Below, one piece after another: positions 41,080 through 55,660 of a DNA stretch of 64,000 nt. Source of the DNA: Solirubrobacteraceae bacterium (GTDB lineage Bacteria; Actinomycetota; Thermoleophilia; Solirubrobacterales; Solirubrobacteraceae). The DNA is taken from positions 3,232 through 67,231 of the forward strand of contig DASUHF010000035.1 of assembly GCA_036273655.1 (NCBI GenBank), given 5' to 3'. Both the position numbers and the translations under genes were made by a program. The stretch's first letter is position 1. Each line of letters opens with the position of its first letter. The notes beneath the pieces were generated by a model, which searched no databases, was not told where the DNA came from, and saw nothing but the letters and a program-made list of their open reading frames with translations.

Positions 41080-41196
41080 TGGACAACACCAGATTTGCAG
41101 CCAAGTTGCGCCGCGGGGGCAGCCGCGTCGCGTGCGGGCCGGCGAGCGCGCGACGTTCGCGGGCAGCTGCACCGGGGTCGTTGGCATCCTTCCCGG

Positions 41197-41739
41197 ATGG
41201 GACCCATCGACGGCGACGGCGTCCGACGCAACATTGAGCTGAAGGCGGTCGACCCGGCCCCGGCGCGTTCGGTGCATACGTGCCGAGCGATCGGCGCCGA
41301 GGATGCCGGCGTCATTCATCAACTGGACACGTACTTCGCCGTCCCGCATGGGAGGCTGAAGCTCCGCGTCGAGTCGCCGGGCCGACCGCACCTCCTCCAG
41401 TACGAGCGCGCCGATCGCCCGGAGGCACGCCAGAGTGCCTACCGGATCGTTGCGCTCGACGACGGCGATGGGCTGCGGGAGGCGTTGGCGGCAGCGCTCG
41501 GTGTGGTGGTGACCGTGGAGAAGCGCCGCCGTCTCTTCCTGTGGCGCCAGGTCCGCATCCATCTCGACGAGGTTGCTGGGCTGGGCAGCTTCATCGAGTT
41601 GGAGGCAGTCGCGCCCGCAGGGTCGGACCTCGCGGCCGAACACTCGCATGTCGCCGAGCTTCGTGGGGTTCTTGGCATCACCGACGCTCGGCTCTGCGCC
41701 AGCGGCTATGCCGCGCAACTCATTGCGGCGCAGCACTGA
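41197..41739 (+). CDS. CYTH-domain protein / class IV adenylate cyclase (CyaB-like)
   Basis: RNIELKAV (EXEXK), DTYFAVPHGRLKLR, VTVEKRRRLFLWRQVRIHLDEVAGLGSFIELEAV. Confidence 0.8.
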   Translation: MGPIDGDGVRRNIELKAVDPAPARSVHTCRAIGAEDAGVIHQLDTYFAVPHGRLKLRVESPGRPHLLQYERADRPEARQSAYRIVALDDGDGLREALAAALGVVVTVEKRRRLFLWRQVRIHLDEVAGLGSFIELEAVAPAGSDLAAEHSHVAELRGVLGITDARLCASGYAAQLIAAQH

Positions 41740-41813
41740 TGGGGCGGCACGCGCCCGGCCAGCGCGGGCGGGCACGGCGAGACCCGCGACCGCATTTGGT
41801 AGGCCCCGGAGCG

Positions 41814-41929: not shown

Positions 41930-42011
41930 GGGTTGGCCGCGAGCGCGTCTTCTCGCCCCAGCGTCCATACCGGCATCCGCCACCCGCGTCCCTCGGCGCG
42001 ACCGAGGATCG

Positions 42012-43454
42012 CTAGACGGTGACCGGCTGCGTCAGCGCCTTGACGAAATCCTCGAGCTGATCGGTCCGCCAACACTCGAACGCCTCGCAGTGCTCGGCGT
42101 AGGCGGCGATCACCGAATCGCCGTAGTTCCAGTACAGCCGCGGCTCGGGGTTGAGCCAGAACGTGCGGCCGGCGCGGGCGGTGATCTGCGCGAACACATC
42201 GTCGCGGGGCGGGCGGCCGTTGGTGCGGGCGTCGCCGAGGACGATCACGGTCGCCCGCGGGTGCAGCTCGTCCTCGATCGTCTCCAGGAACTCGGTCCAG
42301 ACGCGGCCGTAGTCGGTGTAGCCGGAGATGTCGGCGACGCCGGCATCGCGCGACACGGCCTCCGAGGCGGCCTTGAAGTCGCGCTCGCGCTCGAACACGT
42401 CGGTGACCTCGGAGATCCGCTCGATGAACACGAACGAGCGCAGCTTGCGGAACGAGTCGTGCAGCGCGTGCAGCACGCTCAAAAAGAACGTGGAGGCGCT
42501 GGTGACGCTCGTCGAGACGTCGCAGAGCACGAAGATCTCGGGCCGGCGCGGGCGCCGCGGCCGGTATTTGAGCTCGATCGGCACGCCGCCGGACTGCAGC
42601 GACGCGCGCATCGTGCGGCGCACGTCGACATGGGCATGGCGCTTGCGGCCGCGCAGCTCGTGGCCCTGCGTGGCCAGCCGGCGCTTGAGCTGGGCCACGA
42701 CCCGGTGCACCGCCGCGAGGTCCTGGATCGGCCCGCTCGGCAGCGCCCGGTCGAGCTCGGACAGCGGCCGCTTCGGCGGCAGGCTCTGGGTGCGCTCGAT
42801 CATGTCGCGCTCGAGCTCACGGCGCAGGTGCTGCTCGAAGCGCCGCAGCTGGTCACGAGGGAGGCCGTCGTGGCGGGGGTCGTCGTCGGGCAGCGTCGGT
42901 TGCGGCTCCGTGCGCAGGCCGAGCGCGCGGCGGATGCGCTGCACGTCGACGCCCAACACCCCCGAGCCCTCGCCGCGCCCGAACGCCGCGATCGCCAACC
43001 GCGCGAGGTCGCGCAGCGTCGCCTCGTCGCCGTCGCGCAGCGCCGCCGCGATCTGGCGGCGCAGCTCCTCGAGGTCGACCTCGAGCTCGCCCGCGGTGCC
43101 GGCGGGCGGACCTTCGGTGATCTGCTGGCGCGCCGCCTCGGCCTCGGCCGCCCGGAAGAAGAAGCGGTCGAACACCAGCTCGAACACCCGCCGGTCCTCG
43201 GGGGACTTCGCGAGCGTCGCGGCGAGCGCCTCCCTGAACGCGGGCTGGTTGCGCCAGCTGACGTGCGTCAGCGCGTCGAACGCGTCGAGCAGCTCCGACG
43301 TGCCGATCGCCACGTTTTCCGAGCGCAGCTCCTCCGCGAACGAGATCAGCTGGCCGTCGAACCCGCCGGGCGGGCGATCCGGGATCTTGGCGTACAGCCT
43401 GGCGGCCGGCGGCTGCCCGGCGCGGCCGTCTCGGTCAGGCGGCCGGGCGGGCAT
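42012..43454 (-). CDS. VWA-domain protein, CoxE-like
   Basis: 480 aa. N-terminal FAEELRSENVAIGTSELLDAFDAL. C-terminal VWA with MIDAS IFVLCDVSTSV. Confidence 0.8.
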   Translation of the reverse strand: MPARPPDRDGRAGQPPAARLYAKIPDRPPGGFDGQLISFAEELRSENVAIGTSELLDAFDALTHVSWRNQPAFREALAATLAKSPEDRRVFELVFDRFFFRAAEAEAARQQITEGPPAGTAGELEVDLEELRRQIAAALRDGDEATLRDLARLAIAAFGRGEGSGVLGVDVQRIRRALGLRTEPQPTLPDDDPRHDGLPRDQLRRFEQHLRRELERDMIERTQSLPPKRPLSELDRALPSGPIQDLAAVHRVVAQLKRRLATQGHELRGRKRHAHVDVRRTMRASLQSGGVPIELKYRPRRPRRPEIFVLCDVSTSVTSASTFFLSVLHALHDSFRKLRSFVFIERISEVTDVFERERDFKAASEAVSRDAGVADISGYTDYGRVWTEFLETIEDELHPRATVIVLGDARTNGRPPRDDVFAQITARAGRTFWLNPEPRLYWNYGDSVIAAYAEHCEAFECWRTDQLEDFVKALTQPVTV

Positions 43455-44340
43455 CCTGCGCCGCCTCCAGCTTGACGCCGACGCGGGCGGCGACCGTGTC
43501 CAGGTCGGTCCGGTGCTTGACGATCACGCTCATCGTCTGTCGGAACGTGTCCCCGTCGATCTCCTCTGCGCCAAGCAGCATCAGCGCCCGCGCCCAGTCG
43601 ATCGACTCGGCGATACTCGGCGGCTTCTTGAGGTCGAGCTCGCGGATCTGCCCGACGATCTCGACGAGCTTGCGCGCGACCGCGTCGTGCAGGCCGGGCG
43701 AGTGCAGGCGGACGATCTCGAGCTCGTGCTCATGGTCGGGGTAGTCCAGCCACAGGTACAGGCAGCGGCGCTTGAGCGCCTCGGTCAGCTCGCGCGTGTT
43801 GTTGGACGTCAGCAGCACGACCGGCTGCGTGCGGGCCTCGATCCGCCCGAGCTCGGGGATCGAAATCTGGAAGTCCGACAGCAGCTCGAGCAGCATCGCC
43901 TCGAACTCCTGGTCGGTCTTGTCGATCTCGTCGATCAACAACACGACCGGCTGCTCGGAGGCGATTGCGGTCATCAGCGGACGCGGCAGCAGGAACTCCT
44001 CGCCGAAGATGTCCTCCTGCACGTCGGACCAGCCGGTGTCGCCGGACTCCGCCTGGATCCGCAGCAGCTGCTTGCGGTAGTTCCACTCATACAGCGCCTT
44101 GGCCTCGTCCAGGCCCTCGTAGCACTGCAGCCGCACCAGCGTCCGGTCCAGGTAGCGCGACAGCGCCTTCGCCAGCTCGGTCTTGCCGACGCCGGCCGGT
44201 CCCTCGACGAGCACCGGCTTGTCGAGCTTGGTCGCCAAAAAGCTGACCAGCGCGGTCGACTCGCCGGCGAGATAGCCGACCTCGCGCAGGCCGGCGGTGA
44301 CGTCGTCGACGGAGGTGGGCTGGATCATCGTGTCGGTCAT
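43435..44340 (-). CDS. MoxR-like AAA+ ATPase (CoxD-like)
   Basis: VLVEGPAGVGKTELAKAL (Walker A), VVLLIDEIDK (Walker B), LKRRCLYLWLDYPD. Confidence 0.88.
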   Translation of the reverse strand: MTDTMIQPTSVDDVTAGLREVGYLAGESTALVSFLATKLDKPVLVEGPAGVGKTELAKALSRYLDRTLVRLQCYEGLDEAKALYEWNYRKQLLRIQAESGDTGWSDVQEDIFGEEFLLPRPLMTAIASEQPVVLLIDEIDKTDQEFEAMLLELLSDFQISIPELGRIEARTQPVVLLTSNNTRELTEALKRRCLYLWLDYPDHEHELEIVRLHSPGLHDAVARKLVEIVGQIRELDLKKPPSIAESIDWARALMLLGAEEIDGDTFRQTMSVIVKHRTDLDTVAARVGVKLEAAQDARPAA

Positions 44341-44360
44341 CGCGCTCGATCGTCTGGCGG

Positions 44361-44594
44361 GTGGCGGTCGCGTCAAATATAGGCTTGCCGTTCGCCGTGC
44401 CCCTCATCGTCGCAACGCTTGAGTCCGACACCCGCGCGACCGTCCTCGTGCTGGCGCTGGGCTTCGCGATCGGCATCGCGGGCCATCTCACCCGCTCGCG
44501 CGCGCTCGTCGTCATCGGGATCCTGATGATCGCGATCGTCAGCGCGTACTTCACGTTCGCGCTGCGGCCGGGCAGTTCCGGCTCGTTCTTTTAG
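44361..44594 (+). CDS. small hypothetical membrane protein (2 TM)
   Basis: 77-aa ORF with good GC3 bias from about 44385 onward, so the TTG at 44385 is a more likely start. Hydrophobic VLVLALGFAIGIAG and LVVIGILMIAIVSAYF. Confidence 0.5.
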   Translation: MAVASNIGLPFAVPLIVATLESDTRATVLVLALGFAIGIAGHLTRSRALVVIGILMIAIVSAYFTFALRPGSSGSFF

Positions 44595-44611
44595 AGCGTG
44601 GCGGCGCGCCG

Positions 44612-45313
44612 TCAGTCGCCCAGGTCCAGCCAGCCCGTCGCCTGCTCCTCCCAGAGCGTGCGGTCGGGGCGGGGAGCGACGCGGTCGGACCGTGGTGTGC
44701 GCCCGTGCCGCGGCACGCGGTCGGGACGTGCCGGCCGGGCGGCGCGATCGACGCGGCCGGGCGGCGGCGGCCGGTCCGGGTCTGACGGGCGCGACCGACG
44801 TGGCGAGCGCGACGGGCGCGTTCTGCGCGCCGAGCCAACCGCGTCCGGCGCCGGCACGCGGATCAGCCGCACGCCGGCGACGGCCAGCAGCGCGCCGCAG
44901 CCGAGCGCGAGAAACAGGCCCCAGCGGACCGACACCACCGTCGCGTCGAGCGCGTGCCTGGTCGTTCCCGGAGCGGTCGCCAGTTGTATCAGCACGACCA
45001 CGAACGCAAGCGCGCCGAGCGACGCGACGAGCGCGCCGAGCCACCGCCGCCGGCTGCCGCCCTCGTCGGCGGCGGAGAGCGGAATCGCCGCCATCAACAC
45101 CAGCGCGACGACGGCGACGACGAGCATGAGCCCCTCGGTGAACGAGAATGCGTCCCACCCCGAGCGGGTGAGCGTCATCGTCTTCAGGCCGGTGAGGCCG
45201 CGAGCGACGACCGAGTCGCGGTACCAGGGGGCGAACAGGCTGATCAGCAGCCCTGCTGCGGCCGCCGCGGCGAGCGCCCGCCGGCCATGCATCTGACGCG
45301 AGGGCCGAGGCAC
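44612..45313 (-). CDS. hypothetical membrane protein (4 TM) with an Arg/Pro-rich disordered tail
   Basis: 233 aa. TM segments are followed by the RPSRSPRRSRPSDPDRPPPPGR... tail. Alternative start at 45292. Confidence 0.55.
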   Translation of the reverse strand: MPRPSRQMHGRRALAAAAAAGLLISLFAPWYRDSVVARGLTGLKTMTLTRSGWDAFSFTEGLMLVVAVVALVLMAAIPLSAADEGGSRRRWLGALVASLGALAFVVVLIQLATAPGTTRHALDATVVSVRWGLFLALGCGALLAVAGVRLIRVPAPDAVGSARRTRPSRSPRRSRPSDPDRPPPPGRVDRAARPARPDRVPRHGRTPRSDRVAPRPDRTLWEEQATGWLDLGD

Positions 45314-45350
45314 GGCGGCCGATTGTATGAGGCCTGCCGGTCGCCGGCGC

Positions 45351-45815
45351 CTACAAAATCGGGATGTCGTGTACGTCCGACGCCGGCGCCGTCGGCCGCT
45401 CGGCGCGCTCCAGATACCAGTCGATCAGTGCCCGCAGGGCGATCAACAGCTCGCGCACGGCGTCGGCAAGTCGTCGACGCAGCTCCGGCGGGATCCGGTC
45501 GCGGACGCCGGCGAGCAGCGCCATCAGCAGCTCGAGCTCGTCGGGGTCGAGCCACCGATCGCGGCGACGGTGCTCGCCGGCGGGACGCTCCCAGCCCGCC
45601 GCCGGCGGCCGCTCGGGGTCGAGTTCGGGGTCGCCGGAATCGTCGTCGTGCGCGACCTCTGGCTCGGGCTCGGCGGCCGGCTCGCGCGCGCCCACCGCGG
45701 CCTCGAGCACCGACTCCGACAGCAGCCGCTCGGCGCGCTGGGCGGCGGCGTCCAGACGTTCGGTCAGCCGACGCAGCCGCTCGCGGTCGTCGCCTGCGGC
45801 GCCGAGCTCAGCCAT
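45351..45815 (-). CDS. hypothetical acidic/coiled-coil protein coupled to the ArsA-like gene
   Basis: 154 aa from the ATG at 45815, which overlaps the upstream stop by 8 nt (ATGGCTGA). No family recognised. Confidence 0.5.
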   Translation of the reverse strand: MAELGAAGDDRERLRRLTERLDAAAQRAERLLSESVLEAAVGAREPAAEPEPEVAHDDDSGDPELDPERPPAAGWERPAGEHRRRDRWLDPDELELLMALLAGVRDRIPPELRRRLADAVRELLIALRALIDWYLERAERPTAPASDVHDIPIL

Positions 45816-46974
45816 CGAAGCGGATCTCCAGCGAGCCGTCCGTAAACGTCGCGGCGCCGGGGCGCATCGTCGCCATCGCCGGCGGCAGCATGATCGTGCG
45901 CCGCTGGCCGTCGACGGAGACGACCAGCTCGAGCCCGATCTGCTTGAGCGCGATGTCTCCCTTGTCGACGAACGGCAGCGCCAACCGCAGTCGCGCGCCA
46001 TCGTCATCGACGTCGAGCGTCTGCGCGGGCCCCTCGAACAGCACCGCGGACGCGTCTTGGTTGCCGAACAGCGCATCGGCGAGGCGGTCGAGCATGCCCG
46101 GCCCGACCACCTCCTGTTCGAAGTACGGCGCGCGCAGGACCGGCACCGGCGCAAACGCCGACTCGACCAGCTCCAGGTTCTCCTGCTGGACGCGCCGCCA
46201 GGCCGCGAAGTAGTCGCCGACGGCCTCTGAGAACATGCGGTTGACGATCACCGCATCGGTCAGGTACCCGTACAGGTTCAGGTACGTGAACGTGCGCATC
46301 GCCTCGCCGATCACCATCCGGTCGGGGTTCATCACCAGCCGGATCGTGCAGCGGCTGCGGTCGCGCAGGATCTCGTTCATCTCGATCAGGTTCTGCGAGA
46401 GCCGCTCGATGTCGGCGAACACGGCCTGGTCGGGCAGCGAGATGTCCAGCAGCGAGCGAGCGATCGGCCGCGCCGCGGCGAGCAGTTGGCGCTCGAGCGG
46501 GAACACCTTGTCGATCCACCAGCGCGCGACGTCGGGGAACGACAGCAGCCGCAGCGTCTCACCGGTCGGAGCGCAGTCGACGACGATCACGTCCCACTTG
46601 CCGGAGTCGTGGTGGGCCTGCAGGCGCAGCAGCGCGAACAGCTCGTCCATGCCCGGTGGCACGGTCAGCTCCTCGGCCGAGATCCGGTCGACGCCGCGCT
46701 CCACGAGCAGCTCCGACAGCCACCGTTGCACGCCCGACCAGTGGCCATGCATCTCCTCCTGCGCGCGTACCTCCTGGGCCCACAGCCGCGTCGACACGCG
46801 CGTCGGCTCGCCTCCGCAGTCGGCCGACAGCGACTCCGACAGGCTGTGCGCGGGGTCGGTGGAGACGATTAGCGTCCGGTGGCCGGCGGCCGCGCACGCC
46901 CGCGCCGTGCAGGCCGCAACCGAGGTCTTGCCGACGCCGCCCTTGCCGGTGTAGAGGATCGTCCTCGGGGCCAT
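45808..46974 (-). CDS. ArsA/Get3-family ATPase with a C-terminal HSP20-like domain
   Basis: YTGKGGVGKTSVAA (P-loop), LIVSTDPAHSLSESL and DVIVVDCAPTGETLRLL. The C-terminus ARLRLALPFVDKGDIALKQIGLELVVSV is CS/HSP20-like. Confidence 0.85.
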   Translation of the reverse strand: MAPRTILYTGKGGVGKTSVAACTARACAAAGHRTLIVSTDPAHSLSESLSADCGGEPTRVSTRLWAQEVRAQEEMHGHWSGVQRWLSELLVERGVDRISAEELTVPPGMDELFALLRLQAHHDSGKWDVIVVDCAPTGETLRLLSFPDVARWWIDKVFPLERQLLAAARPIARSLLDISLPDQAVFADIERLSQNLIEMNEILRDRSRCTIRLVMNPDRMVIGEAMRTFTYLNLYGYLTDAVIVNRMFSEAVGDYFAAWRRVQQENLELVESAFAPVPVLRAPYFEQEVVGPGMLDRLADALFGNQDASAVLFEGPAQTLDVDDDGARLRLALPFVDKGDIALKQIGLELVVSVDGQRRTIMLPPAMATMRPGAATFTDGSLEIRFDG

Positions 46975-47011
46975 GGCGGTCCGAGTCTACGGGCGCCGCG
47001 ACCCCGCGCCG

Positions 47012-48496
47012 CTACCCGGAGACCGTGAGCGTCCCGGTGATCCGGTTGAAGTTGCCGGCGAGGTCGGTGGCGGCCAGCCGCACCCCGTAGGTCCCGACCC
47101 TGAGCTTCGGCACGCTGAAGCGGTGTACGCCATAGCCGAAGCTCGCGCTCGTCGAGAAGACGGTGCTCGTACCGCTGGTGATGACGATGCCGACGTGGGA
47201 GACCTTCGAGAGCCGGAATCGCAGCGCGAACCAGGTGTGCGGTTTGGCGCGCCGAGTCAGGTCGGCAAGTGTCGGTGGCGTGGTCTCGTCGGCGACGAAC
47301 GCCCGCGCGGTCGTGCAGTAGACCGGCGTGTTCGTCAGCGTGCACAGCTCCTGCAAGAAGCCGGTGACGAGCTCGTGGTAAGACAAATCGTCCTCGACGC
47401 CCGGCTGATACAGCGACCAGGCGCCGGTGTCGAAGCGCGGCACCTCGGCGATCGCCTCGGCATTTCCCTCGTCGAACAATGTTTGCGCGGTCGCGTTGCC
47501 ACTCACCTGCGCGTAGTCGTGCAGCCCGATCAGCGTCTGCAGGAACGCGTTGATGATCGACAGCTTCGGCGCGAACGTGTACTGGAGGAAGCGGACGCCG
47601 CGCTTGGTGGGGACCGCGACGCCGGTCGGCGGGCGCCGCTTGAAGATCTGGAGCGCGTGCGCGCCGGTGACCAGGTAGGCGCGGTTCCCGGTCGCCTCGT
47701 AGGCGCGCGTCAGCGCCTCGAGCCCGGTCGCCTGCGACATCGCGCTCGTCCACGGCGGCTTGCCGCCGTCGAACTCAAACAGGTACTCCCAGGTGAGGCC
47801 GCGGCCGCGCCGGGACGCGAGCGCGATCATCTCCGACAGCAGTTGCTCCATTGCGGAGTAGTACGACGGTCCGGCCGTATAGAGGCCGTCGGCCTTGCCG
47901 AACGTGCCGAGCACCTGCAGCTGGATGCCCTGCCTCGGGTAGTACTGCCAGACGAGCTGCGAGCCGGCGAATTCGATCCGCTGATCGGGGGCGGGCAGCG
48001 ATCCCTTCGTCCACCACCTGCGATTGGCGTCGAGCGTCGCAACCACTTCGGCCAGTCGCGGCGGCGACAGCGCGCCGCCGGCGGCGAGGTTGTGGACGGT
48101 CTCGGTCACGGCTGCAAGCTCGGACTTCCTCGTTCCGTACAGGCGCCGCTCCGCCCGCAGCGCGGCGTTGAAGGCGCGAAGCGTCTGCCGGTACTGCCCG
48201 GAGCTGATGCGGCGATGGCTACGCAGGCGCGACAGCACCGACTTGACCGTGACCGGTTTGCGCTTGTGCTTATGGCTGGGGGGCAGCGTGCGGCCACGAC
48301 GCGCGCTCACGGCGACACGCGGTCCGAGGGAGGGGGCGGGCGTCGTCGCGGCCGGGCTCAGAAAGCGGTCGTCGCGCTCGTGCACGCGCCCGTGGGGGCC
48401 GAGCACGAGTACCGGAGCCGCGGTCGCCGTGCCGGGGAACGCGACGACGCAGAGCAGGACGACCAGGCACCTGCGCACCGAGGCGACGGTAACCAC
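47012..48496 (-). CDS. secreted D-glucuronyl C5-epimerase-family protein with a C-terminal Ig-like domain
   Basis: Signal peptide. PPWTSAMSQATGLEALTRAYEATGNRAYL, IINAFLQTLIGLHDYA and TGAWSLYQPG...LSYHELVTGFL match the C5-epim_C pattern. Confidence 0.75.
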   Translation of the reverse strand: MVTVASVRRCLVVLLCVVAFPGTATAAPVLVLGPHGRVHERDDRFLSPAATTPAPSLGPRVAVSARRGRTLPPSHKHKRKPVTVKSVLSRLRSHRRISSGQYRQTLRAFNAALRAERRLYGTRKSELAAVTETVHNLAAGGALSPPRLAEVVATLDANRRWWTKGSLPAPDQRIEFAGSQLVWQYYPRQGIQLQVLGTFGKADGLYTAGPSYYSAMEQLLSEMIALASRRGRGLTWEYLFEFDGGKPPWTSAMSQATGLEALTRAYEATGNRAYLVTGAHALQIFKRRPPTGVAVPTKRGVRFLQYTFAPKLSIINAFLQTLIGLHDYAQVSGNATAQTLFDEGNAEAIAEVPRFDTGAWSLYQPGVEDDLSYHELVTGFLQELCTLTNTPVYCTTARAFVADETTPPTLADLTRRAKPHTWFALRFRLSKVSHVGIVITSGTSTVFSTSASFGYGVHRFSVPKLRVGTYGVRLAATDLAGNFNRITGTLTVSG

Positions 48497-48508
48497 CTCG
48501 CGGATCCG

Positions 48509-50911
48509 TCAGCCGCTGTGTTCGACGTCGTAGTCGTGCTCCTGATCAGCTGCGCCGAGGAGCTTGGAAACGTCCACGACCGGCGCCGAGACGGGCAGCG
48601 TCAGCGGCGCGCGGTCCGGGTCGGTCGGGTGGCCGGGCGTGTCGCGCGACGCTCGGCGACGGTCGGGGAAGCCGAGGTACAGGACCCGCTCCCAGTCGGG
48701 CATCGCGACACCGTCGGGTTGCTCGCGCGGACGGGGCGCGCTGCGGGCGGGCATCGGCGCCGGGTGGCGCGGCTTGTACAGCCACGAGACGACATTGACC
48801 CAGATGTCGACGAGCGAGTTGCGCAAGCCGATGAATGCGACGATCGCGTACGCCGCCAGCACGGCGTTGATCGCCGCGAACACCGCGTTCGCCCACAGGC
48901 CGTGGTCATAGGCGCGCTTGAACGTGTACGCCGAGAACGCGACGAGTAGGTATGGGAGGACCACGTACACGAACGCTGGGACCGTCCGGTCGCGCACCTT
49001 CGGGGTGCGTTTGAATTTGCCCTTGGCGCCGGTCAGCGCCTGCACGATCGAGCTGAGGCTGCCCGCGAGGTTGACCGGCAGCAGCAGCAGGTTGAACCCG
49101 TAGATGCTGAGGGCATCGAGCCTGCGGTAACCGCAGTAGCGCAGGTCGACGGCCATCGCCAGGAAGTACGGGACGGCGACGGCGTACGTCAGCGGCGACA
49201 CCAGGTGGCCGTTGAACGGGATCACCATCAGGCACAGGACGAACAGCGAGCTCCAGAAGATCGAGGCCATGTAGTTGAGCCGGAGCAGCATCTCTCCGAT
49301 CGTCGTGCGCTCGCCCCGGGTGCGGCGCAGGCGAACCGCTCGCGCCAGCTTCGGAACGATCAACAAGCCGCCGTTGGCCCACCGCTCGCGCTGGATGCAG
49401 AGGGAGCCGAAATCAGGCGGCGTCGCGCTATACGCCAGCCGCTCCGGGTAATTGTGCAATGTCCAGCCGTGCGCCGCGAGGTCGATCGTGGATTCGGTGT
49501 CCTCGATCACGGTCCGGTCGGAGATGTAGCGGTAGATCTTGAACTCGCCCTGATACTCGACCTCCTCGATGTCCTCCAGCGCGCGCTTGCGCAGCACCGC
49601 GTTGGCTCCGACCCAAAACGTGGCGTCGTGGTAGGTCATCCCCTGATGGATGATGTGCTGCAGGTCGGTGGTCGCCCCCGCGATCAGCTCCAGCCGCGTC
49701 GCCGGCCCGGGGAACGCGCTATAGGGCGCCTGGGCGACCGCGACGCGACCATGTTCCTCGCGCTCGAGCAGATGCACCAGGCGCAGGCAGTACTCGGGCA
49801 TGATGACGCTGTCGGCGTCGATCGTCAGCACGTATTCGCAGTCGGGCACGACGAGGTCCGGCTCGGCGTCGCCGGCGTCGAGCAGGTGCAGGCCCGCGGG
49901 CGTCTGGCGTTCGACGTAGCTTGAGCCCATCAGTCCGATGTAGCTGTTGAGGTTCATCGCCTTGTTGGGCTCGGCCGACAACGACGCATACCGCTTGCGC
50001 TGGAAGCTTGAGACCTCCGCCTGGAACGTCCAGACGAGCCGGTGATACAGCTGCTCCAGGCGCTCGATCGTGAGCTTGGTGGGATCGTCCGCAGCGGCGG
50101 ACCGCAGCACGCGCCCGGTCAGCATCAGGTCGGACGCGAGCCTGCCCAGCACGTGTGTGGCGAAGAAGCGCTCGTTGTGATCGGTGGCCTGATACTGGTC
50201 TGCCAGGGACTGCATCCAGGTGCCGGCGTACTCGTACTCGAGCGCGAGCGCGACGACCTGCTCGACGGTCGGTTCGCCGTTGCGGTCAACGGTGTCCTCG
50301 AACCGCGCCAATCCCTGCTCCACGCGCTGTCGCGGCTCCGACAGCAGCCGCTCGACCTCCGCGGGCAGCGCCTGCGCGCTGTCGAGTAGCCGCCGTGGCT
50401 CGGCGTAGCGGGGATTGGGCGGGTCGTCGATCAGCAGCACGATCTGGAGGTCCGGGTACTCCTGCAGAGCGACCGACAGCAGCGTCATCAGGATCACTCT
50501 GGGCTCCTCCTGGTAGGAGGGCACCAGCACCGTCATCGTCGGACGCCGCTCGGAGAAGAATGCATCGATCACCGCTCGCGGGGCGCGGCGGTGCTGGCGT
50601 GCGCGGTAGTAGAACCCGAGCCGCCCGAACAGGTAGCCGACCGCCGACGCGGCCAGCAGACTGACCGCGACGAGGAAGCCGACCGTTTGCAGCAGGCTCG
50701 AGTGGCCGGGTCCGTCGTGCAGTAGTTGGCCGTTGACGACCGTGATCACCAATGCCAGCCAGGCGGCCACGGTGACCGCGACCGCGCCGCGGCCGAACAA
50801 CATCGACCGGTCGCCCGCCACGCGCGGCACGACCGGCATCGGGTCTTGATGGGCGCTGACGCCCCACTGGCGCCGGGGCCGCGGGGAATCGATTCGACGT
50901 CGGCCGAGCAT
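48509..50911 (-). CDS. processive family-2 glycosyltransferase, cellulose-synthase (BcsA)-like, no PilZ domain
   Basis: VLVPSYQEE, LLIDDP, NKAMNLN (KAGNLN-like), TIDADS, EDTEST and QRERWANG, flanked by TM helices. KFKRTPK is near the C-terminal TM bundle. The ATG at 50911 lies 2 nt after the upstream stop. Confidence 0.85.
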   Translation of the reverse strand: MLGRRRIDSPRPRRQWGVSAHQDPMPVVPRVAGDRSMLFGRGAVAVTVAAWLALVITVVNGQLLHDGPGHSSLLQTVGFLVAVSLLAASAVGYLFGRLGFYYRARQHRRAPRAVIDAFFSERRPTMTVLVPSYQEEPRVILMTLLSVALQEYPDLQIVLLIDDPPNPRYAEPRRLLDSAQALPAEVERLLSEPRQRVEQGLARFEDTVDRNGEPTVEQVVALALEYEYAGTWMQSLADQYQATDHNERFFATHVLGRLASDLMLTGRVLRSAAADDPTKLTIERLEQLYHRLVWTFQAEVSSFQRKRYASLSAEPNKAMNLNSYIGLMGSSYVERQTPAGLHLLDAGDAEPDLVVPDCEYVLTIDADSVIMPEYCLRLVHLLEREEHGRVAVAQAPYSAFPGPATRLELIAGATTDLQHIIHQGMTYHDATFWVGANAVLRKRALEDIEEVEYQGEFKIYRYISDRTVIEDTESTIDLAAHGWTLHNYPERLAYSATPPDFGSLCIQRERWANGGLLIVPKLARAVRLRRTRGERTTIGEMLLRLNYMASIFWSSLFVLCLMVIPFNGHLVSPLTYAVAVPYFLAMAVDLRYCGYRRLDALSIYGFNLLLLPVNLAGSLSSIVQALTGAKGKFKRTPKVRDRTVPAFVYVVLPYLLVAFSAYTFKRAYDHGLWANAVFAAINAVLAAYAIVAFIGLRNSLVDIWVNVVSWLYKPRHPAPMPARSAPRPREQPDGVAMPDWERVLYLGFPDRRRASRDTPGHPTDPDRAPLTLPVSAPVVDVSKLLGAADQEHDYDVEHSG

Positions 50912-50913
50912 GA

Positions 50914-52524
50914 TCACGAAGCTCCGCTCGTGGTGTTGCTCGCCGGCTCGCCGGCGTACTTGAACAGCGGTTGCCACGGCGCGCTCGGGTCGGGCGGGAG
51001 CTGATCCAGCGGCTGCTGGCCGCTGCTGTACCAGCGGGCGCGGTACGGCAGGCCCTGGAACCGAACGCGGTCGCCGACACGGTAGACGGCGGTCGGCGAC
51101 CACCTCGGGTAGCGGGCGGTTGCGAGCCGGACGATTGCCGGTGCATGACTGCCGCGTGGTACCGGCCCGATCGGCTGCCAGGGACCGGTCGGTGCGTCGC
51201 CGGCCGCCGAACCCGGAGCGGTCCCCTGGTTGTACCAGCCCGCCTGGTAGATCTGCCCCTGCCACACGACCTTGTAGCCGGCTACGTAGGGCGCGGTTGC
51301 GCTCCAGATCGGATAGGGGCTCGTCGCCGGGTTGTCGGACGTCGTCGGTGGCGCCGACGAGGTGGGAGCAGACGCGGACGCGTGCGCGGTCTTGGTGCCG
51401 CGCAGGCCGCTGAAGATGTGCGTGAATTCGAGTTTGCGCTGGGTCACGCCGCTGCACGTGTTCGACACGACGCCGGTACGCGCGAACGCGCCACCGCATT
51501 CCGAGTCGCGGTTCAGCGACCACACCGACACGCGGGCGATTCGGCGCTGGGCCACGAACCTCGACAGCGCTCGAGCGTCGGGGATCGTGAACCGCTGTCC
51601 TGGGACGTCGTTGACGCCGAGCATCACGGTCGCGCCGACGCGACTCCATGCCGCCGCGGCGCTCAGGCTGAGACCGGATGTCCGCCACAGCGACTGCACC
51701 TGGTCACGGGTCGCCGTCAGCGCGCGCTCGACGGTCCCGAGCATGTCGTGCGTCGCGCCCTCGCCCGGTCCAAAGTCCATCGCCATCGCGTTGACACCGG
51801 CGAGCTTCACGTGGGCCCGCAGCATCGCCCGCACCGCGGCGGTGCCCTGTGAGGTCAGTCCGGTCTTGGAAACGGGCAGCGTCACCCAGACCCGGAGCGG
51901 CGTATGCGCGGCCGCGAGCCGACGCTGGATCGTGGCGACCGCCGCCGCCCGCCTCGTATCGGCGGCGGTGTTGGCGAGCGTCGCGCCCTCGAGGTCGAAG
52001 TCGACGGCGGTCGCGTGGTAGCGGCGAATCGGCGCCATGTACGCGCTGACCAGTTGGCTGCGGCTGGTGCATCCGACCGCCAGCTCGCTGTTTGCCTGGC
52101 CCCCGAACGAGACCATGACCGCGCCTCCCTGGGCCCGCAGCTCGGCGGTGCGCGCATCGAGGTCGAGTGCCTGCTCGGCCTGCGCCAGCGTGTAGTAGGT
52201 GCCCCAGGTCGGTGTGCAGGGCTGCGACCGCGCGCTGACGATGAACGCCAGGTACACGCTCGACACCGGGTTGGCCGATGGCAGCTGGAACGGGTAGGTG
52301 GGCGTCTGGGTGACGTCGACGTACGGGGCGTACACGGGAGAGACCGACGTGGCGCCCGCGGCGCTGTTGTGGGCGAACAGGCGCCAGATCCCGAATGCGG
52401 CCCCTGCGAGCACGAGCAACAGCAACAGCACCCGGATCGGTGAGAGCTCGGGCGCCGGTGGCCCGAGCGGCGGCTCAGGCGGCCGCTCGGATACGGCGGC
52501 GGATTGTCCCCCGGTGATGGCCAT
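50914..52524 (-). CDS. membrane-anchored GH18 (chitinase class III-like) protein with two C-terminal CBM5/12 modules
   Basis: N-terminal TM helix. YAPYVDVT, SFGGQANSELA and the catalytic AVDFDLEG (DxDxE). Two W/Y-rich modules: YPIWSATAPYVAGYKVVWQGQIYQAGWY and YPRWSPTAVYRVGDRVRFQGLPYRARWY. Confidence 0.85.
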   Translation of the reverse strand: MAITGGQSAAVSERPPEPPLGPPAPELSPIRVLLLLLVLAGAAFGIWRLFAHNSAAGATSVSPVYAPYVDVTQTPTYPFQLPSANPVSSVYLAFIVSARSQPCTPTWGTYYTLAQAEQALDLDARTAELRAQGGAVMVSFGGQANSELAVGCTSRSQLVSAYMAPIRRYHATAVDFDLEGATLANTAADTRRAAAVATIQRRLAAAHTPLRVWVTLPVSKTGLTSQGTAAVRAMLRAHVKLAGVNAMAMDFGPGEGATHDMLGTVERALTATRDQVQSLWRTSGLSLSAAAAWSRVGATVMLGVNDVPGQRFTIPDARALSRFVAQRRIARVSVWSLNRDSECGGAFARTGVVSNTCSGVTQRKLEFTHIFSGLRGTKTAHASASAPTSSAPPTTSDNPATSPYPIWSATAPYVAGYKVVWQGQIYQAGWYNQGTAPGSAAGDAPTGPWQPIGPVPRGSHAPAIVRLATARYPRWSPTAVYRVGDRVRFQGLPYRARWYSSGQQPLDQLPPDPSAPWQPLFKYAGEPASNTTSGAS

Positions 52525-52641
52525 ATACGCGCCGACACGGCGCCACTCCGGGAATCGGCAGATCGGCGCTGGGACTTGAGGGCAGGGCTCGAGTCTTCAG
52601 CGGGCGGTCACCTGCTCGCCGGCGTCAGCGGCTCGCGGGCG

Positions 52642-52953
52642 CTACTCGCGCCCGGGGTCCTGCTCGTCGTCCTCGGCGTCGTCGGGCTCCTCGTTGTCGG
52701 GGTCGCTCTCGGCGGCGCCGGCGTGGAGGTGCACCTGGAAGGCTTCGAGCAGTTCGTCGCGGCGGTTCTCGTCGACCGGGGTGTCGTCGGCGATCAGGAC
52801 CCACTCGGCGCCCTCGTACTGCTCCATGTTGAAGACCTCGGAGTCGAGGTCGGGGGAGTCGTCGACGATCACGACGACCTCCGTCTGCGGGTTGAAGTAC
52901 GTGCCGGGACGGTTGACGAGCTCGTCCAGTTCGAATACGCGAGGATCTGCCAT
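52642..52953 (-). CDS. hypothetical highly acidic small protein
   Basis: 103 aa with good GC3 bias and an Asp/Glu-rich C-terminus. No family recognised. Confidence 0.55.
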   Translation of the reverse strand: MADPRVFELDELVNRPGTYFNPQTEVVVIVDDSPDLDSEVFNMEQYEGAEWVLIADDTPVDENRRDELLEAFQVHLHAGAAESDPDNEEPDDAEDDEQDPGRE

Positions 52954-52973
52954 AGCGCGTGCAGGCTAGACGG

Positions 52974-53447
52974 TCACGCCGCCCCGTGCGTCGGGGGGCT
53001 GGCGAGCCCGCTCAGGTCCACCAGCTCGCGCTCGATCTCGGCCTCGACGTCGAGCGGCTCCAGGCCCTTGCGGGCGCGCCGATGGTTGCGCGCGAGCACC
53101 AGCTGACGGATCTCCTCGCGCAGCTCGTCGTCCGCCTCGGGCACGGTCGTCAGTCGCGCAAGCTCCGCCTCGACGTCGAGCTCAGGCTCGCCCCGGCGCC
53201 GCCGCCGGGCGTTGCGCGCCTCCAGCATCTGGCGAACCTCCTCGTCGCGCTGGCGGAACGCCGCCGGAGCGCGGGGCGCCTCGGAGTCGAGCACCAGCCG
53301 GTCTGAGCCGTACCGCGCCCAGTCGCGCCTGGAGGTCGCGACCGCGATCAGGGCGCCGAGCACGCCGACCGCGCAGACCCCCAGGACCACGAACAGGAAC
53401 GCGCTCTCCACGACCCCATCAGTGTCGCGCATCGGCTGGCCGAGCAC
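52974..53447 (-). CDS. hypothetical membrane-anchored protein with an internal repeat of about 40 aa
   Basis: One TM helix (FLFVVLGVCAVGVLGALIAV). Repeats are EEVRQMLEARNARRRRRGEPELDVEAELARL and EEIRQLVLARNHRRARKGLEPLDVEAEIEREL. Alternative start at 53432. Confidence 0.55.
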   Translation of the reverse strand: MLGQPMRDTDGVVESAFLFVVLGVCAVGVLGALIAVATSRRDWARYGSDRLVLDSEAPRAPAAFRQRDEEVRQMLEARNARRRRRGEPELDVEAELARLTTVPEADDELREEIRQLVLARNHRRARKGLEPLDVEAEIERELVDLSGLASPPTHGAA

Positions 53448-53574
53448 CAGGCGCGGCCGGCGAAGTTCGGCGATCCGCTCCCGCCGTCCGGAAGCGAATC
53501 GGCAAGCTTTTTGGCACGGCTCGCGTCGCCATGGCAGCCGTCCGGGCAGCCGCTATCCTACGCTCCCGAAGCAT

Positions 53575-53592
53575 ATTGACTGACTAGTCAAT
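53575..53592. promoter_or_regulatory. 7-bp inverted repeat ATTGACT-gact-AGTCAAT immediately upstream of the acyl-CoA dehydrogenase RBS
   Basis: Read directly. The GAAGGAG SD is at 53594-53600 and the ATG at 53606. Confidence 0.3.
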
Positions 53593-53605
53593 CGAAGGAG
53601 CAACC

Positions 53606-54775: not shown

Positions 54776-54782
54776 TCGTCGC

Positions 54783-55436: not shown

Positions 55437-55660
55437 CCACTCCAGCGTCGCACTTTCTCGGCGTCGCACGTTCGGCGCCACGCTTCGGGCGCCCTGAGTG
55501 ATTCGCCAATCCATCCCCGTCCAGGGTGGGTTGGTTGGCGATGCGTGAGCGATCGTGATCCGTCGCCATCCTGCGTTGAGGCCGCGTGAAATGGCGAGCA
55601 ATTCACGTCCGTGGAAGTCGAGGGGGGTGAAATCGTGGTCGCCAACCGCTCTTACGAGAC

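What the first reader, a model, noticed from the sequence alone, without database searches (positions are those of the whole stretch)
47012..52524. GH18+CBM5/12, BcsA-like GT2 and glucuronyl-C5-epimerase-like cluster: possible uncharacterised exopolysaccharide system
Three co-directional genes are separated by gaps of 2 and 12 nt. The first is a membrane-anchored GH18 with an intact DxDxE motif (AVDFDLEG) and two chitin-binding-type CBM5/12 modules. The second is a processive GT2 with the cellulose-synthase signatures (KAMNLN, TIDADS, TED, QRERW) but no PilZ domain. The third is a secreted D-glucuronyl C5-epimerase-family protein with an Ig-like tail. In bcs operons a dedicated GH8 hydrolase accompanies the synthase. 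Here a GH18 takes that place, pointing to a GlcNAc-containing polymer. The C5-epimerase homologue suggests uronic-acid epimerisation after polymerisation, as in heparan- or dermatan-like glycosaminoglycans. I am not aware of a characterised bacterial system with this trio.
Basis: partly seen in the sequence, partly recalled or inferred. Interest (0 to 1): 0.7.

Follow-up and report, generated by a model that had tools for sequence, protein, structure and literature searches.

The report
Conserved chitinase–synthase pair; epimerase is a bystander
A membrane sugar-polymer synthase and a membrane-anchored chitinase form a conserved, apparently unstudied two-gene unit across actinobacteria that probably makes and trims a chitin-like polymer, while the neighbouring epimerase-like gene is adjacent only because this unit landed next to it in one lineage.

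Summary
The three genes exist as described, on the minus strand of a Solirubrobacterales (Actinomycetota) window: a membrane-anchored GH18 with two CBM5/12 modules, a BcsA-like GT2, and a secreted C5-epimerase-family protein.

**The trio is not a conserved system.**
- GH18 lies next to the GT2 in 78 of 81 related loci across Actinomycetota. The other three contigs are too short to judge.
- The pair occurs in three gene orders and, in several genomes, as one fused GT2-TM-GH18-CBM protein.
- None of those loci has the epimerase within 10 kb.
- The epimerase-like gene belongs to a separate conserved Solirubrobacteraceae backbone. Equally close relatives keep that backbone without GH18–GT2.
- So the trio arose because the two-gene cassette sits in a variable slot of that backbone.

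**The GT2 is outside the curated synthase families.** It scores far below the cellulose, PNAG, NodC and MdoH thresholds. Family members carry fusions to extracytoplasmic CE4, LCP and amidase-like domains, a membrane acyltransferase, and cytoplasmic EAL.

**Best reading:** an uncharacterised synthase-plus-hydrolase module for a GlcNAc polymer, probably β-1,4 and chitin-like. The product is inferred, not shown. The glycosaminoglycan-like epimerisation idea is not supported.

The parts
50914..52524 (-). Gene for a membrane-anchored GH18 chitinase-type protein with two C-terminal CBM5/12 modules (536 aa). It is the partner of the synthase.
   Evidence: ORF and translation. PDB 9buf exochitinase 1 at E=2e-56. 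Pfam CBM_5_12. Adjacent to the GT2 in 78/81 loci.
52375..52431 (-). Single N-terminal transmembrane helix of the GH18 protein (residues 32-50), preceded by a conserved cytoplasmic (R)RLSxxR-type motif (ELSPIR here).
   Evidence: Hydropathy scan. The TM helix and the motif are conserved in the GH18 partners of every sampled locus.
51400..52362 (-). GH18 catalytic domain (residues 55-375).
   Evidence: Full-length alignment to solved chitinases 9buf, 2dsk and 3a4w.
51988..52002 (-). DxDxE catalytic motif (D175-F-D-L-E179).
   Evidence: Motif position. Aligned with DFDIE of 9buf. A D[LF]D[IVL]E motif is kept in all 78 partner GH18s.
51202..51318 (-). First CBM5/12-type module (about residues 403-441).
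   Evidence: Pfam CBM_5_12 with 2 stretches, and CBM_5_12_2 at 415-441. PDB hits 2d49 and 6z40.
50971..51102 (-). Second CBM5/12 module (residues 475-518).
   Evidence: Pfam CBM_5_12 best stretch 475-518.
48509..50911 (-). Gene for a processive membrane GT2 synthase (800 aa). It has 2 N-terminal TM helices, a GT-A domain, interface helices and a C-terminal TM bundle.
   Evidence: Pfam. AlphaFold2 model with pLDDT 84.8 and pTM 0.84. Foldseek finds BcsA at 3e-13, then CesA, HAS, cyclic glucan synthase and chitin synthases.
50024..50404 (-). Family-specific helical insertion of about 125 residues (170-296) between the DD and DAD motifs of the GT-A domain.
   Evidence: Secondary structure of the model. 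The region is covered by full-length matches in the family. It is absent from the BcsA alignment.
49379..49393 (-). QRERW (QxxRW) acceptor-binding motif, residues 507-511.
48512..48769 (-). Disordered C-terminal tail of the GT2 (residues 715-800). It contains no PilZ or EAL domain.
   Evidence: pLDDT below 50. No Pfam domain.
47012..48496 (-). Gene for a secreted D-glucuronyl C5-epimerase-family protein with an Ig-like tail (494 aa). It is a neighbour and not part of the conserved module.
   Evidence: Pfam C5-epim_C at 8e-30. GlcE PDB hits at 1e-10. Model and Foldseek. Synteny.
45808..46974 (-). ArsA/Get3-type ATPase. It is a backbone gene that follows the epimerase-like gene in all relatives.
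   Evidence: Pfam and NCBIfam. Synteny.
52642..53447 (-). Two small backbone ORFs (157 aa and 103 aa, no Pfam hit). They mark the upstream edge of the slot that holds GH18-GT2.
   Evidence: Conserved at 65-88% identity in L082 and L084-L088.

Best explanation
The functional unit is two genes, not three.

**How the unit is proposed to work**
- The GT2 is a processive, membrane-integrated synthase. It polymerises a UDP-sugar on the cytoplasmic face and threads the chain out through its own transmembrane channel. The fold and motifs are shown. The activity is inferred.
- The partner is a single-pass membrane protein. Its GH18 chitinase domain and two CBM5/12 modules lie outside the membrane next to the channel exit. 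The topology is inferred from the fusion proteins.
- There the CBMs would hold the emerging chain and the GH18 would cut it. This would set chain length, release the chain, or clear stalled polymer, as BcsZ, PgaB, PelA and AlgL do in other synthase-dependent systems.

**Likely product**
- GH18 catalysis needs a 2-acetamido sugar, and relatives of the synthase are fused to CE4 deacetylases. The product is therefore most likely a poly-GlcNAc chain.
- It is probably beta-1,4 (chitin-like), because the GH18 is close to true chitinases.

**Regulation**
- In relatives, control by c-di-GMP is likely from EAL fusions and GGDEF neighbours. No receptor domain is visible in this window's protein.

**The epimerase-like gene**
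- It encodes a secreted enzyme that belongs to a different, conserved Solirubrobacteraceae neighbourhood.
- It became the third gene only because the GH18-GT2 cassette sits in a variable slot just upstream of it.
For: **Pairing**
- GH18+CBM lies next to the GT2 in 78/81 loci from Solirubrobacterales, Acidimicrobiales, Actinoplanes, Blastococcus, Conexibacter, Streptosporangiaceae and others. The three exceptions are contigs of 2.4-3.3 kb.
- Three gene orders occur: 29 divergent, 29 downstream and 20 upstream.
- No third gene is universally conserved beside the pair.
- The reverse test agrees. Three GH18 homologues that I looked up all sit beside the GT2.

**Fusions**
- P0122 is GT2-TM-GH18-CBMx2, and it aligns to the whole window GH18 at E=5e-124.
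- Single ORFs of 1337 and 1587 aa span both genes in L068 and L030. L038 looks the same.

**Enzyme integrity**
- All partner GH18s keep DxDxE and the TM anchor.
- The GT2 keeps DD, DAD, ED and QxxRW, plus an FKRTPK loop resembling the BcsA gating loop.
- The structure model is confident and BcsA/CesA/HAS-like.

**Family fusions**
- CE4 occurs in six representatives, LytR_cpsA_psr in two, and DMFA2_C and Acyl_transf_3 in one each. EAL occurs in four.
- An extra TM helix precedes most of the GH18, CE4, LCP and DMFA2_C fusions, with exceptions. No EAL fusion has one.
- A PAS-GGDEF gene lies nearby in 14/80 loci.

**Independence of the epimerase**
- It is absent within 10 kb in all 80 genome loci, and absent from L001 and L089.
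- L084-L086 have the order ACAD, two small ORFs, epimerase, ArsA, AAA/VWA, GH5, with no GH18-GT2.
- Only the window and L082, L083, L087 and L088 have the cassette in that slot.
Against: - No experiment exists. The product sugar and linkage are inferred from the partner enzymes only.
- By sequence, the only solved relatives of the GT2 are cellulose synthases (BcsA, profile E=1e-14). The best NCBIfam hit is CelA rather than PgaC or NodC. A glucan product therefore cannot be excluded.
- GH18 and CE4 enzymes can also act on peptidoglycan.
- CE4 fused to a GT2 is known from the PNAG (beta-1,6) synthase MatB (PMC5972031).
- The 12-nt gap and shared strand mean the epimerase-like gene is probably co-transcribed with the GT2 in this lineage. 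A lineage-specific functional link is not strictly excluded.
- Whole-genome co-occurrence could not be tested.
- Only the 80 best of at least 590 related genome loci were examined.
Confidence: 0.6

Rival explanations
1. Cellulose-like glucan plus wall remodelling. The GT2 makes a beta-glucan, as its nearest relative BcsA does. The anchored GH18-CBM5/12 protein does not cut the product. Instead it opens the chitin-like glycan backbone of peptidoglycan locally so that the chain can pass the thick wall. This would resemble LpmP and CslZ beside CslA in Streptomyces.
For: - BcsA is the only sequence-detectable solved relative, and CelA is the best NCBIfam hit.
- The FWVGAN and IEDTES motifs align with BcsA FFCGS and TEDAET.
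- In Streptomyces, CslA/GlxA make cellulose and an LPMO remodels peptidoglycan to allow deposition (PMC11022532, PMC9040799).
- CE4 and LCP fusions could also be directed at the wall.
- From my own knowledge, some GH18 enzymes such as hevamine also cleave peptidoglycan.
Against: - The GH18 domain is closest to bona fide chitinases (2e-56 to exochitinase 1).
- It carries CBM5/12 rather than wall-binding modules such as LysM or PG_binding.
- In every characterised synthase-dependent system, the operon hydrolase or lyase cuts the system's own polymer (established knowledge: BcsZ, PgaB, PelA, PslG, AlgL).
- Fusion of the hydrolase to the synthase places it at the channel exit.
Confidence: 0.17
2. 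PNAG-type polymer. The GT2 makes beta-1,6-poly-GlcNAc, and the GH18 domain is its dedicated hydrolase. The GH18-like barrel of PgaB (GH153) would be the analogue.
For: - NCBIfam PgaC_IcaA hit at E=2e-11.
- The GT2-TM-CE4 architecture in relatives mirrors the PNAG synthase MatB (PMC5972031).
Against: - The PgaC score is 43 bits against a 422-bit cut-off, and it is lower than the CelA score.
- No GH18 is known to cut beta-1,6-GlcNAc (own knowledge).
- The catalytic domain is close to chitinases, and CBM5/12 binds crystalline beta-1,4 polymers.
Confidence: 0.08
3. First reader's model. The three genes are one system that makes a GlcNAc/uronic-acid polymer. The secreted C5-epimerase homologue epimerises it after polymerisation, giving a heparan- or dermatan-like glycosaminoglycan.
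For: - The genes are co-directional with a 12-nt gap.
- The trio is kept in five loci of one lineage (window, L082, L083, L087, L088).
- The protein keeps four of the five GlcE catalytic residues, equivalent to Y500, N510, Y560 and Y578 (residue list from PMC13308652).
- Its best structural match is the GlcE helical domain.
- HAS-type single GT2 enzymes can make GlcNAc/GlcA copolymers, and HAS is a structural neighbour.
Against: - The epimerase is absent from all 80 other GH18-GT2 loci.
- It is present without GH18-GT2, in the same backbone position, in equally close relatives.
- It shows no sequence specialisation in trio loci.
- Gln is invariant at the E499 position.
- It lacks the GlcE beta-hairpin and beta-sandwich domains.
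- No UDP-glucose dehydrogenase or other uronic-acid gene was found among the neighbours scanned.
- GH18 is not known to cut uronic-acid polymers (own knowledge).
Confidence: 0.06
4. Coincidental or regulatory adjacency. The GH18 is an ordinary nutritional chitinase, and the GT2 has an unrelated product.
For: - Databases annotate the protein simply as 'chitinase'.
- The catalytic domain resembles secreted chitinases.
Against: - Adjacency holds in all evaluable loci across orders despite rearrangement.
- Covalent fusions exist.
- The conserved membrane anchor with a juxtamembrane motif is unlike a freely secreted enzyme.
Confidence: 0.03

Closest known systems
Bacterial cellulose synthase system (BcsA with BcsB and the GH8 endoglucanase BcsZ)
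   Same: - It is a membrane-integrated processive GT2 with D, DxD, ED and QxxRW motifs and a gating-loop-like motif.
- BcsA is the best hit by both sequence and fold.
- A dedicated extracytoplasmic hydrolase is encoded beside the synthase, together with an anchored carbohydrate-binding partner.
   Different: - It scores 79.8 bits against the 699-bit CelA cut-off, at about 16% identity.
- There is no PilZ domain, no BcsB and no GH8.
- A helical insertion of about 125 residues sits in the GT-A domain.
- The partner is a GH18 chitinase with CBM5/12, which implies a GlcNAc substrate rather than glucose.
PNAG systems (PgaABCD, IcaADBC, Streptomyces MatAB)
   Same: - They are synthase-dependent poly-GlcNAc systems in which a GT2 works with an extracytoplasmic CE4 deacetylase and a hydrolase.
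- The MatB GT2-TM-CE4 fusion (PMC5972031) has the same design as the CE4 fusions in this family.
   Different: - The PgaC model scores 43 against a 422 cut-off.
- The partner here is GH18 with CBM5/12, not CE4 with GH153.
- The linkage is expected to be beta-1,4.
Chitin synthases, NodC and class I hyaluronan synthases
   Same: - They share the GT2 superfamily fold (Foldseek: HAS 4e-9, CHS 4e-5).
- They use a GlcNAc donor, as predicted here.
- Fungi also pair chitin synthesis with GH18 chitinases (own knowledge).
   Different: - No sequence-level hit to the Chitin_synth Pfam models is found for the window protein, and NodC scores 26 against 550.
- The bacterial CHS genes described so far are eukaryote-derived and occur in proteobacteria, in different operons (PMC5122149).
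Streptomyces CslA-GlxA-CslZ-LpmP apical glycan system
   Same: - It is an actinobacterial BcsA-like GT2 without PilZ.
- A dedicated hydrolase and a chitin/peptidoglycan-active accessory enzyme are encoded beside it (PMC11022532, PMC9040799).
   Different: - No GlxA, GH6 or AA10 is present here.
- The partner is GH18.
- No Streptomyces locus appears among the best 80 relatives.
[quoted passage not shown]
   Same: - PF06662 domain.
- The alpha-helical catalytic domain superposes at about 3 Å over 211 columns.
- Equivalents of Y500, N510, Y560 and Y578 are invariant.
   Different: - Gln replaces E499 in every family member.
- There are no beta-hairpin or beta-sandwich domains. The protein has its own helical N-domain and an Ig-like tail.
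- It is secreted.
- It is not linked to any uronic-acid polymer synthase.

Membership tests
UDP-forming cellulose synthase BcsA (TIGR03030 / PRK11498) | Whole-protein score at or above the curated equivalog cut-off | tested here: not met
   79.8 bits against 699.1 (TIGR03030), and 26.1 against 992 (NF008558).
UDP-forming cellulose synthase BcsA (TIGR03030 / PRK11498) | GT2 catalytic motifs (DD, DxD, (T)ED, QxxRW) and a transmembrane channel fold | tested here: met
   DDPP at 162, DAD at 365-367, IED at 469 and QRERW at 507. These are invariant in the family. Foldseek finds BcsA at 3e-13.
UDP-forming cellulose synthase BcsA (TIGR03030 / PRK11498) | C-terminal PilZ c-di-GMP receptor domain | tested here: not met
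   No PilZ hit in Pfam. Residues 715-800 are disordered.
UDP-forming cellulose synthase BcsA (TIGR03030 / PRK11498) | BcsB and GH8 BcsZ partners in the operon | tested here: not met
   The neighbours are GH18, C5-epim_C, ArsA and small ORFs. No other conserved neighbour is found across 80 loci.
PNAG synthase PgaC/IcaA (TIGR03937) | Score at or above the equivalog cut-off | tested here: not met
   43.4 bits against 422.3, with only residues 463-566 matched.
Chitooligosaccharide synthase NodC / chitin synthase | Score at or above the NodC cut-off, or a Pfam Chitin_synth hit | tested here: not met
   NodC scores 26.1 against 550. The window protein has no Chitin_synth hit. Two distant family members give sub-threshold PF03142 hits of 23-26 bits.
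Class I hyaluronan synthase | Dual UDP-GlcNAc/UDP-GlcA specificity and sequence membership | not testable with these tools
   Only fold-level similarity is seen (E=4e-9, 10-12% identity). The profile search finds no sequence hit.
GH18 chitinase | DxDxE catalytic motif with the acid Glu | tested here: met
   D175-F-D-L-E179 aligns with 9buf DFDIE. It is conserved in 78/78 partners.
GH18 chitinase | Full-domain homology to enzymes of known structure and activity | tested here: met
   9buf at E=2e-56 over residues 55-374, and Pyrococcus chitinase at 9e-18. The Pfam PF00704 model is below cut-off (16.4 against 29.6).
GH18 chitinase | Hydrolysis of beta-1,4-GlcNAc linkages | not testable with these tools
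   This needs an enzyme assay.
CBM5/12 | Pfam model above the gathering score | tested here: met
   41.8 bits against 26.2, with two stretches.
D-glucuronyl C5-epimerase (GlcE family, PF06662) | C5-epim_C domain above the gathering score | tested here: met
   104.1 bits against 23.3. Foldseek's best hits are GlcE structures.
D-glucuronyl C5-epimerase (GlcE family, PF06662) | Catalytic residues E499, Y500, N510, Y560 and Y578 (human numbering, listed in PMC13308652) | tested here: inconclusive
   Q305, Y306, N316, Y363 and Y373 are invariant in 29 family members. Four of five are kept, and Glu is always Gln. The loops carrying these residues have low model confidence.
D-glucuronyl C5-epimerase (GlcE family, PF06662) | N-terminal beta-hairpin dimerisation domain and beta-sandwich domain | tested here: not met
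   The model shows a helical N-domain and a C-terminal Ig-like sandwich instead. Only about 211 columns align to GlcE.
   0 of 80 genome loci have the epimerase within 10 kb. The epimerase occurs without GH18-GT2 in L084-L086. The trio is seen only in five loci with 82-100% GT2 identity.
Synthase-dependent exopolysaccharide systems (general) | Membrane synthase plus a cognate extracytoplasmic hydrolase or lyase | tested here: met
   That GH18 is specific for the system's own polymer is inferred.
Synthase-dependent exopolysaccharide systems (general) | c-di-GMP receptor | tested here: inconclusive
   None is found in the window protein, and no riboswitch is found. Relatives carry EAL fusions and GGDEF neighbours in 14/80 loci.

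The most novel reading that the evidence does not exclude
The GT2-GH18 pair could be a native bacterial machine for chitin (beta-1,4-poly-GlcNAc). Unlike the proteobacterial CHS genes, it would not be borrowed from eukaryotes.
- The synthase would be physically coupled, and in some species fused, to its own chitinase at the channel exit.
- It would be widespread in soil Actinomycetota.
- Sister branches would deacetylate the polymer (CE4), attach it to the wall (LCP) or place it under c-di-GMP control (EAL).
- In the window's lineage, the downstream secreted epimerase-family enzyme might additionally have been drawn into the operon.
Probability: 0.4. Interest if true: 0.75.

Novelty: new variant of a known kind. 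Interest (0 to 1): 0.5.

Why it matters
**If the prediction holds**
- Chitin synthesis is regarded as essentially eukaryotic. The known bacterial GlcNAc polymers are NodC oligomers and beta-1,6 PNAG.
- A conserved actinobacterial synthase with an obligate, sometimes fused, chitinase partner would be a new route to a chitin-like wall or matrix polymer in abundant soil bacteria such as Solirubrobacterales, Acidimicrobiales, Actinoplanes and Geodermatophilaceae.
- This would have consequences for soil amino-sugar budgets, for biofilm and aggregate formation, and for enzymatic production of defined chito-oligomers.
- The synthase-hydrolase fusion is also a tidy natural experiment on how dedicated hydrolases cooperate with processive synthases.

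**A cautionary point**
- Tight spacing and shared orientation of three glyco-genes did not mean one system here. Comparing relatives resolved the trio into a mobile two-gene cassette and a resident neighbour.

Tried and rejected
- **Streptomyces origin.** I first assumed this from the roughly 70% GC content. Homologue names show Solirubrobacterales instead.
- **Literature on the pair or trio.** Six searches found nothing specific. The bacterial CHS paper concerns unrelated eukaryote-type genes in proteobacteria.
- **Reading the GlcE structure papers.** PMC6452739 and PMC4335203 are not held. I took the catalytic residue list from PMC13308652 instead.
- **Apparent loss of the epimerase in L088.** No gene is called there, but tblastn shows the gene is present with a frame break in the Ig-like tail. 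I make no claim of loss.
- **A third conserved partner.** All-against-all clustering of ORFs in 80 loci found none. The second-largest cluster is an antisense ORF artefact inside GH18, and the next is PAS-GGDEF in 14 loci.
- **Regulatory elements.** No Rfam family such as a c-di-GMP riboswitch is present in 44000-56000. No minus-strand terminator or sigma-70-like promoter is found in 45500-53700.
- **Uronic-acid precursor genes.** None was found among the 30 window ORFs scanned.
- **Assigning the donor sugar from GT2 motifs.** I abandoned this. The FWVGAN and IEDTES motifs resemble BcsA but are not diagnostic, and I had no reference sequences for a proper phylogeny with CslA, MatB, NodC and HAS.

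Full report
**Observation**

The window is about 70% GC. The homologues of its proteins come from Solirubrobacterales, in the Thermoleophilia class of Actinomycetota.

Three co-directional minus-strand ORFs with coding-type GC3 occupy 47012-52524.

*Gene 1 (52524..50914, 536 aa)*
- It has one N-terminal TM helix at residues 32-50.
- Its GH18 catalytic domain aligns end to end with solved chitinases. PDB 9buf 'exochitinase 1' gives E=2e-56, and the Pyrococcus chitinase domain gives 9e-18.
- VDFDLEG lies opposite VDFDIEG in that alignment.
- It carries two CBM5/12 modules.
- The generic Pfam GH18 model is below threshold (16.4 against 29.6 bits). The assignment therefore rests on the PDB homology.

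*Gene 2 (50911..48509, 800 aa)*
- It is a Glyco_trans_2_3 GT2 (E=2.6e-36).
- It contains DDPP, KAMNLN, TIDADS, IED (not literally TED), QRERW and an FKRTPK loop.
- No PilZ domain is present.
- The ATG at 50911 follows the GH18 stop codon by 2 nt and has a GGAG upstream.

*Gene 3 (48496..47012, 494 aa)*
- It has a C5-epim_C domain (8.3e-30).
- Its N-terminus resembles a signal peptide and it ends in an Ig-like beta-sandwich.
- It starts 12 nt after the GT2 stop codon.

**Is the trio a unit?**

I built a profile of 23 diverse family members (A1) and scanned one genome per GTDB species. At least 590 loci encode a relative of the GT2. I kept the best 80, which have 50-76% identity.

The tblastn results with the window proteins are clear:
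- The GH18 catalytic domain and the CBM pair lie directly beside the GT2 in 78 of 81 loci.
- The three exceptions are contigs of 2.4-3.3 kb with no flanking sequence.
- The epimerase-like protein has no match within 10 kb in any of these loci.

The carriers include Solirubrobacterales, Conexibacter, Acidimicrobiales, Actinoplanes and Paractinoplanes, Planosporangium, Blastococcus and Modestobacter, Streptosporangiaceae, Trebonia and others.

The pair has been rearranged repeatedly yet stays together. GH18 is divergent upstream in 29 loci, downstream in 29 and upstream co-directional in 20. In several genomes the two proteins are one polypeptide:
- P0122 (1345 aa) reads GT2, TM helix, GH18, two CBM5/12. 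It aligns to residues 28-536 of the window GH18 at E=5e-124.
- L068 and L030 have single ORFs of 1337 and 1587 aa spanning both genes.

Every partner GH18 keeps DxDxE and a single N-terminal TM helix preceded by a conserved (R)RLSxxR motif. All-against-all clustering of neighbouring ORFs found no third universally conserved gene. In the reverse direction, three GH18 homologues chosen from a separate search all sit next to the GT2.

**Where the epimerase gene belongs**

Homologues of the third protein (58-88% identity) are abundant in Solirubrobacteraceae. I looked up three of them on long contigs (L084, L085, L086).

In all three, the gene lies in the same conserved backbone as in the window. 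The order is: divergent acyl-CoA dehydrogenase, two small ORFs, the C5-epim_C gene, an ArsA/Get3-type ATPase, an AF_1253-domain gene, an AAA plus VWA-CoxE pair, and a GH5. None of the three has GH18 or the GT2.

The space between the second small ORF and the epimerase gene is a variable slot:
- It is empty in L084.
- It holds an unrelated reverse-strand gene in L085 and L086.
- It holds GH18-GT2 in the window, L082, L083, L087 and L088.

Backbone genes are equally similar in both groups. ArsA is 84-86% identical except in L086. The epimerase catalytic domain is 74-80% identical in trio loci and 76-80% identical in non-trio loci. So it shows no sign of specialising to the cassette.

Other Solirubrobacterales carry GH18-GT2 at unrelated positions (L001 and L089). 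The trio is therefore a lineage-specific juxtaposition.

**The synthase**

The GT2 family is large. It has 545 clusters at 50% identity with E<=1e-30, and members match over the full length at 36-56% identity. Public sources name it only generically.

It lies outside every curated synthase equivalog:

| Model | Score (bits) | Cut-off (bits) |
|---|---|---|
| CelA | 79.8 | 699 |
| PgaC | 43 | 422 |
| MdoH | 28 | 328 |
| NodC | 26 | 550 |

By sequence, only BcsA is detectable among solved structures (1.7e-9 for the single sequence, 1e-14 for the profile).

The AlphaFold2 model is confident (pLDDT 84.8, pTM 0.84). It shows:
- two N-terminal TM helices
- a GT-A domain interrupted by a helical insertion of about 125 residues (170-296)
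- interface helices and a C-terminal TM bundle
- a disordered tail (715-800)

Foldseek ranks the structural neighbours in this order: BcsA (3e-13), plant CesA, hyaluronan synthases, cyclic glucan synthase, then chitin synthases. The protein is thus a processive, channel-forming synthase of its own subfamily.

**Clues to the product**

Fusions in other family members are informative:
- C-terminal CE4 deacetylase in six representatives
- LytR_cpsA_psr in two
- a DMFA2_C amidase-like domain in one
- an Acyl_transf_3 membrane acyltransferase in one
- EAL in four

An extra TM helix precedes most of the GH18, CE4, LCP and DMFA2_C fusions, though not all. No EAL fusion has one. This fits modifying domains that act outside the membrane and a cytoplasmic c-di-GMP module. 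A PAS-GGDEF gene lies nearby in 14 of 80 loci.

GH18 catalysis is substrate-assisted and requires a 2-acetamido sugar. That is established knowledge of the family. Every characterised synthase-dependent system encodes a hydrolase or lyase for its own polymer (BcsZ, PgaB, PelA, PslG, AlgL). Together with the CE4 fusions, this points to a poly-GlcNAc product.

The closeness of the GH18 domain to true chitinases, and the CBM5/12 modules, favour beta-1,4 linkage. This step is inference.

Rivals remain:
- The product could be a glucan, with the GH18 remodelling peptidoglycan as LpmP and CslZ do beside CslA in Streptomyces (PMC9040799, PMC11022532).
- The product could be a beta-1,6 PNAG-like polymer. 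The design precedent is MatB, a GT2-TM-CE4 fusion (PMC5972031).

**The third protein**

The key GlcE catalytic residues are E499, Y500, N510, Y560 and Y578 (as listed in PMC13308652, which cites Debarnot 2019).

I anchored the numbering on the Y578F substitution that distinguishes PDB 6i01 from 6hzz in the alignments. On that basis the window protein has Q305, Y306, N316, Y363 and Y373. All five are invariant in 29 family members. Four of the five GlcE residues are kept, and the Glu is always Gln.

The model has pLDDT 75.5, with low confidence in the loops that carry these residues. It matches the GlcE alpha-helical domain at about 3 Å over 211 columns. It lacks the GlcE beta-hairpin and beta-sandwich domains.

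So this is a secreted member of the C5-epim_C superfamily whose substrate is unknown. Nothing ties it to the GT2 product. No uronic-acid precursor gene was seen among the 30 window ORFs I scanned.

**Comparison with what is known, and novelty**

The module works like a synthase-dependent exopolysaccharide system. It is not a member of the Bcs, Pga/Ica, NodC/CHS or HAS families by any tested criterion.

Six literature searches found no description of a GT2-GH18 pair. The only 'bacterial chitin synthases' reported are eukaryote-derived CHS genes in proteobacteria, in different operons (PMC5122149).

I class the module as a new variant of a known kind. The glycosaminoglycan-like trio is not supported (about 6%).

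**Verdict**

- The real finding is a widespread, apparently uncharacterised two-gene (sometimes one-gene) synthase-chitinase module, probably for a chitin-like polymer.
- The epimerase-like gene is a resident neighbour.
- Interest is 0.5. The evidence for the module is strong and makes bacterial chitin-like polymer synthesis directly testable in culturable Actinoplanes, Blastococcus and Conexibacter strains. The product is still inferred, and the most eye-catching part of the original claim falls away.

Noticed in passing
L078:2232-6004: A MAG labelled Candidatus Saccharimonadales carries the GT2 (50% identity) with GH18-CBM immediately downstream. Saccharibacteria live on Actinobacteria, so this is either horizontal transfer from a host or a binning error.
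   Followed up: no
P0169, P0150 (GT2 family members; no window coordinates): In these members the GT2 is fused at its C-terminus to a LytR_cpsA_psr ligase domain. This suggests that in some lineages the polymer is attached covalently to the cell wall.
   Followed up: partly
window 52432-52449 (residues 26-31 of GH18) and the equivalent positions in L001-L081: A conserved cytoplasmic (R)RLS-x-x-R motif sits directly before the GH18 TM helix in all gene arrangements and in the fusion proteins. It could be a docking or sorting signal.
   Followed up: partly
window 39133-44376 (minus strand): A MoxR-like AAA_5 ATPase (43435..44376), a VWA_CoxE protein (42012..43454) and an 880-aa GH5 'cellulase' protein (39133..41775) are conserved in the same backbone as the epimerase-like gene and ArsA across relatives.
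   Followed up: partly
window 45354-46974 (minus strand): An ArsA/Get3-fold ATPase with an HSP20-like tail is followed by an AF_1253-domain gene. The best NCBIfam subfamily hit is TRC40/GET3/ArsA, and a weaker hit is the 'Get3-fold tail-anchor ATPase NosAFP'. This pair always lies directly downstream of the epimerase-like gene.
   Followed up: partly
L088:11133-12615: The epimerase-like gene is not called in this relative. tblastn shows it is present with a frame break in the Ig-like tail, so it is either a pseudogene or a long-read indel.
   Followed up: partly
window 7493-9856 (+): This 787-aa protein fuses a GT4 glycosyltransferase to an LPG_synthase_TM (MprF-type flippase-like) membrane domain. 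It is an unusual architecture and unrelated to the finding.
   Followed up: no
window 17571-18986 (+): This is a eukaryote-type UDPGP-family UDP-sugar pyrophosphorylase (PF01704, E=2e-120). It lies 30 kb from the synthase, so it could supply precursor but is not linked to it.
   Followed up: no
L005:12380-14020, with L006, L008, L011 and L018: A triple-PAS GGDEF diguanylate cyclase is encoded convergently, immediately downstream of the GT2, in several Solirubrobacterales. The window has the epimerase-like gene in that position instead.
   Followed up: partly
window 55661-56698 (+): This ORF has a DUF559 / REase_MTES_1575 endonuclease-like domain, and it lies between backbone genes upstream of the locus.
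   Followed up: no
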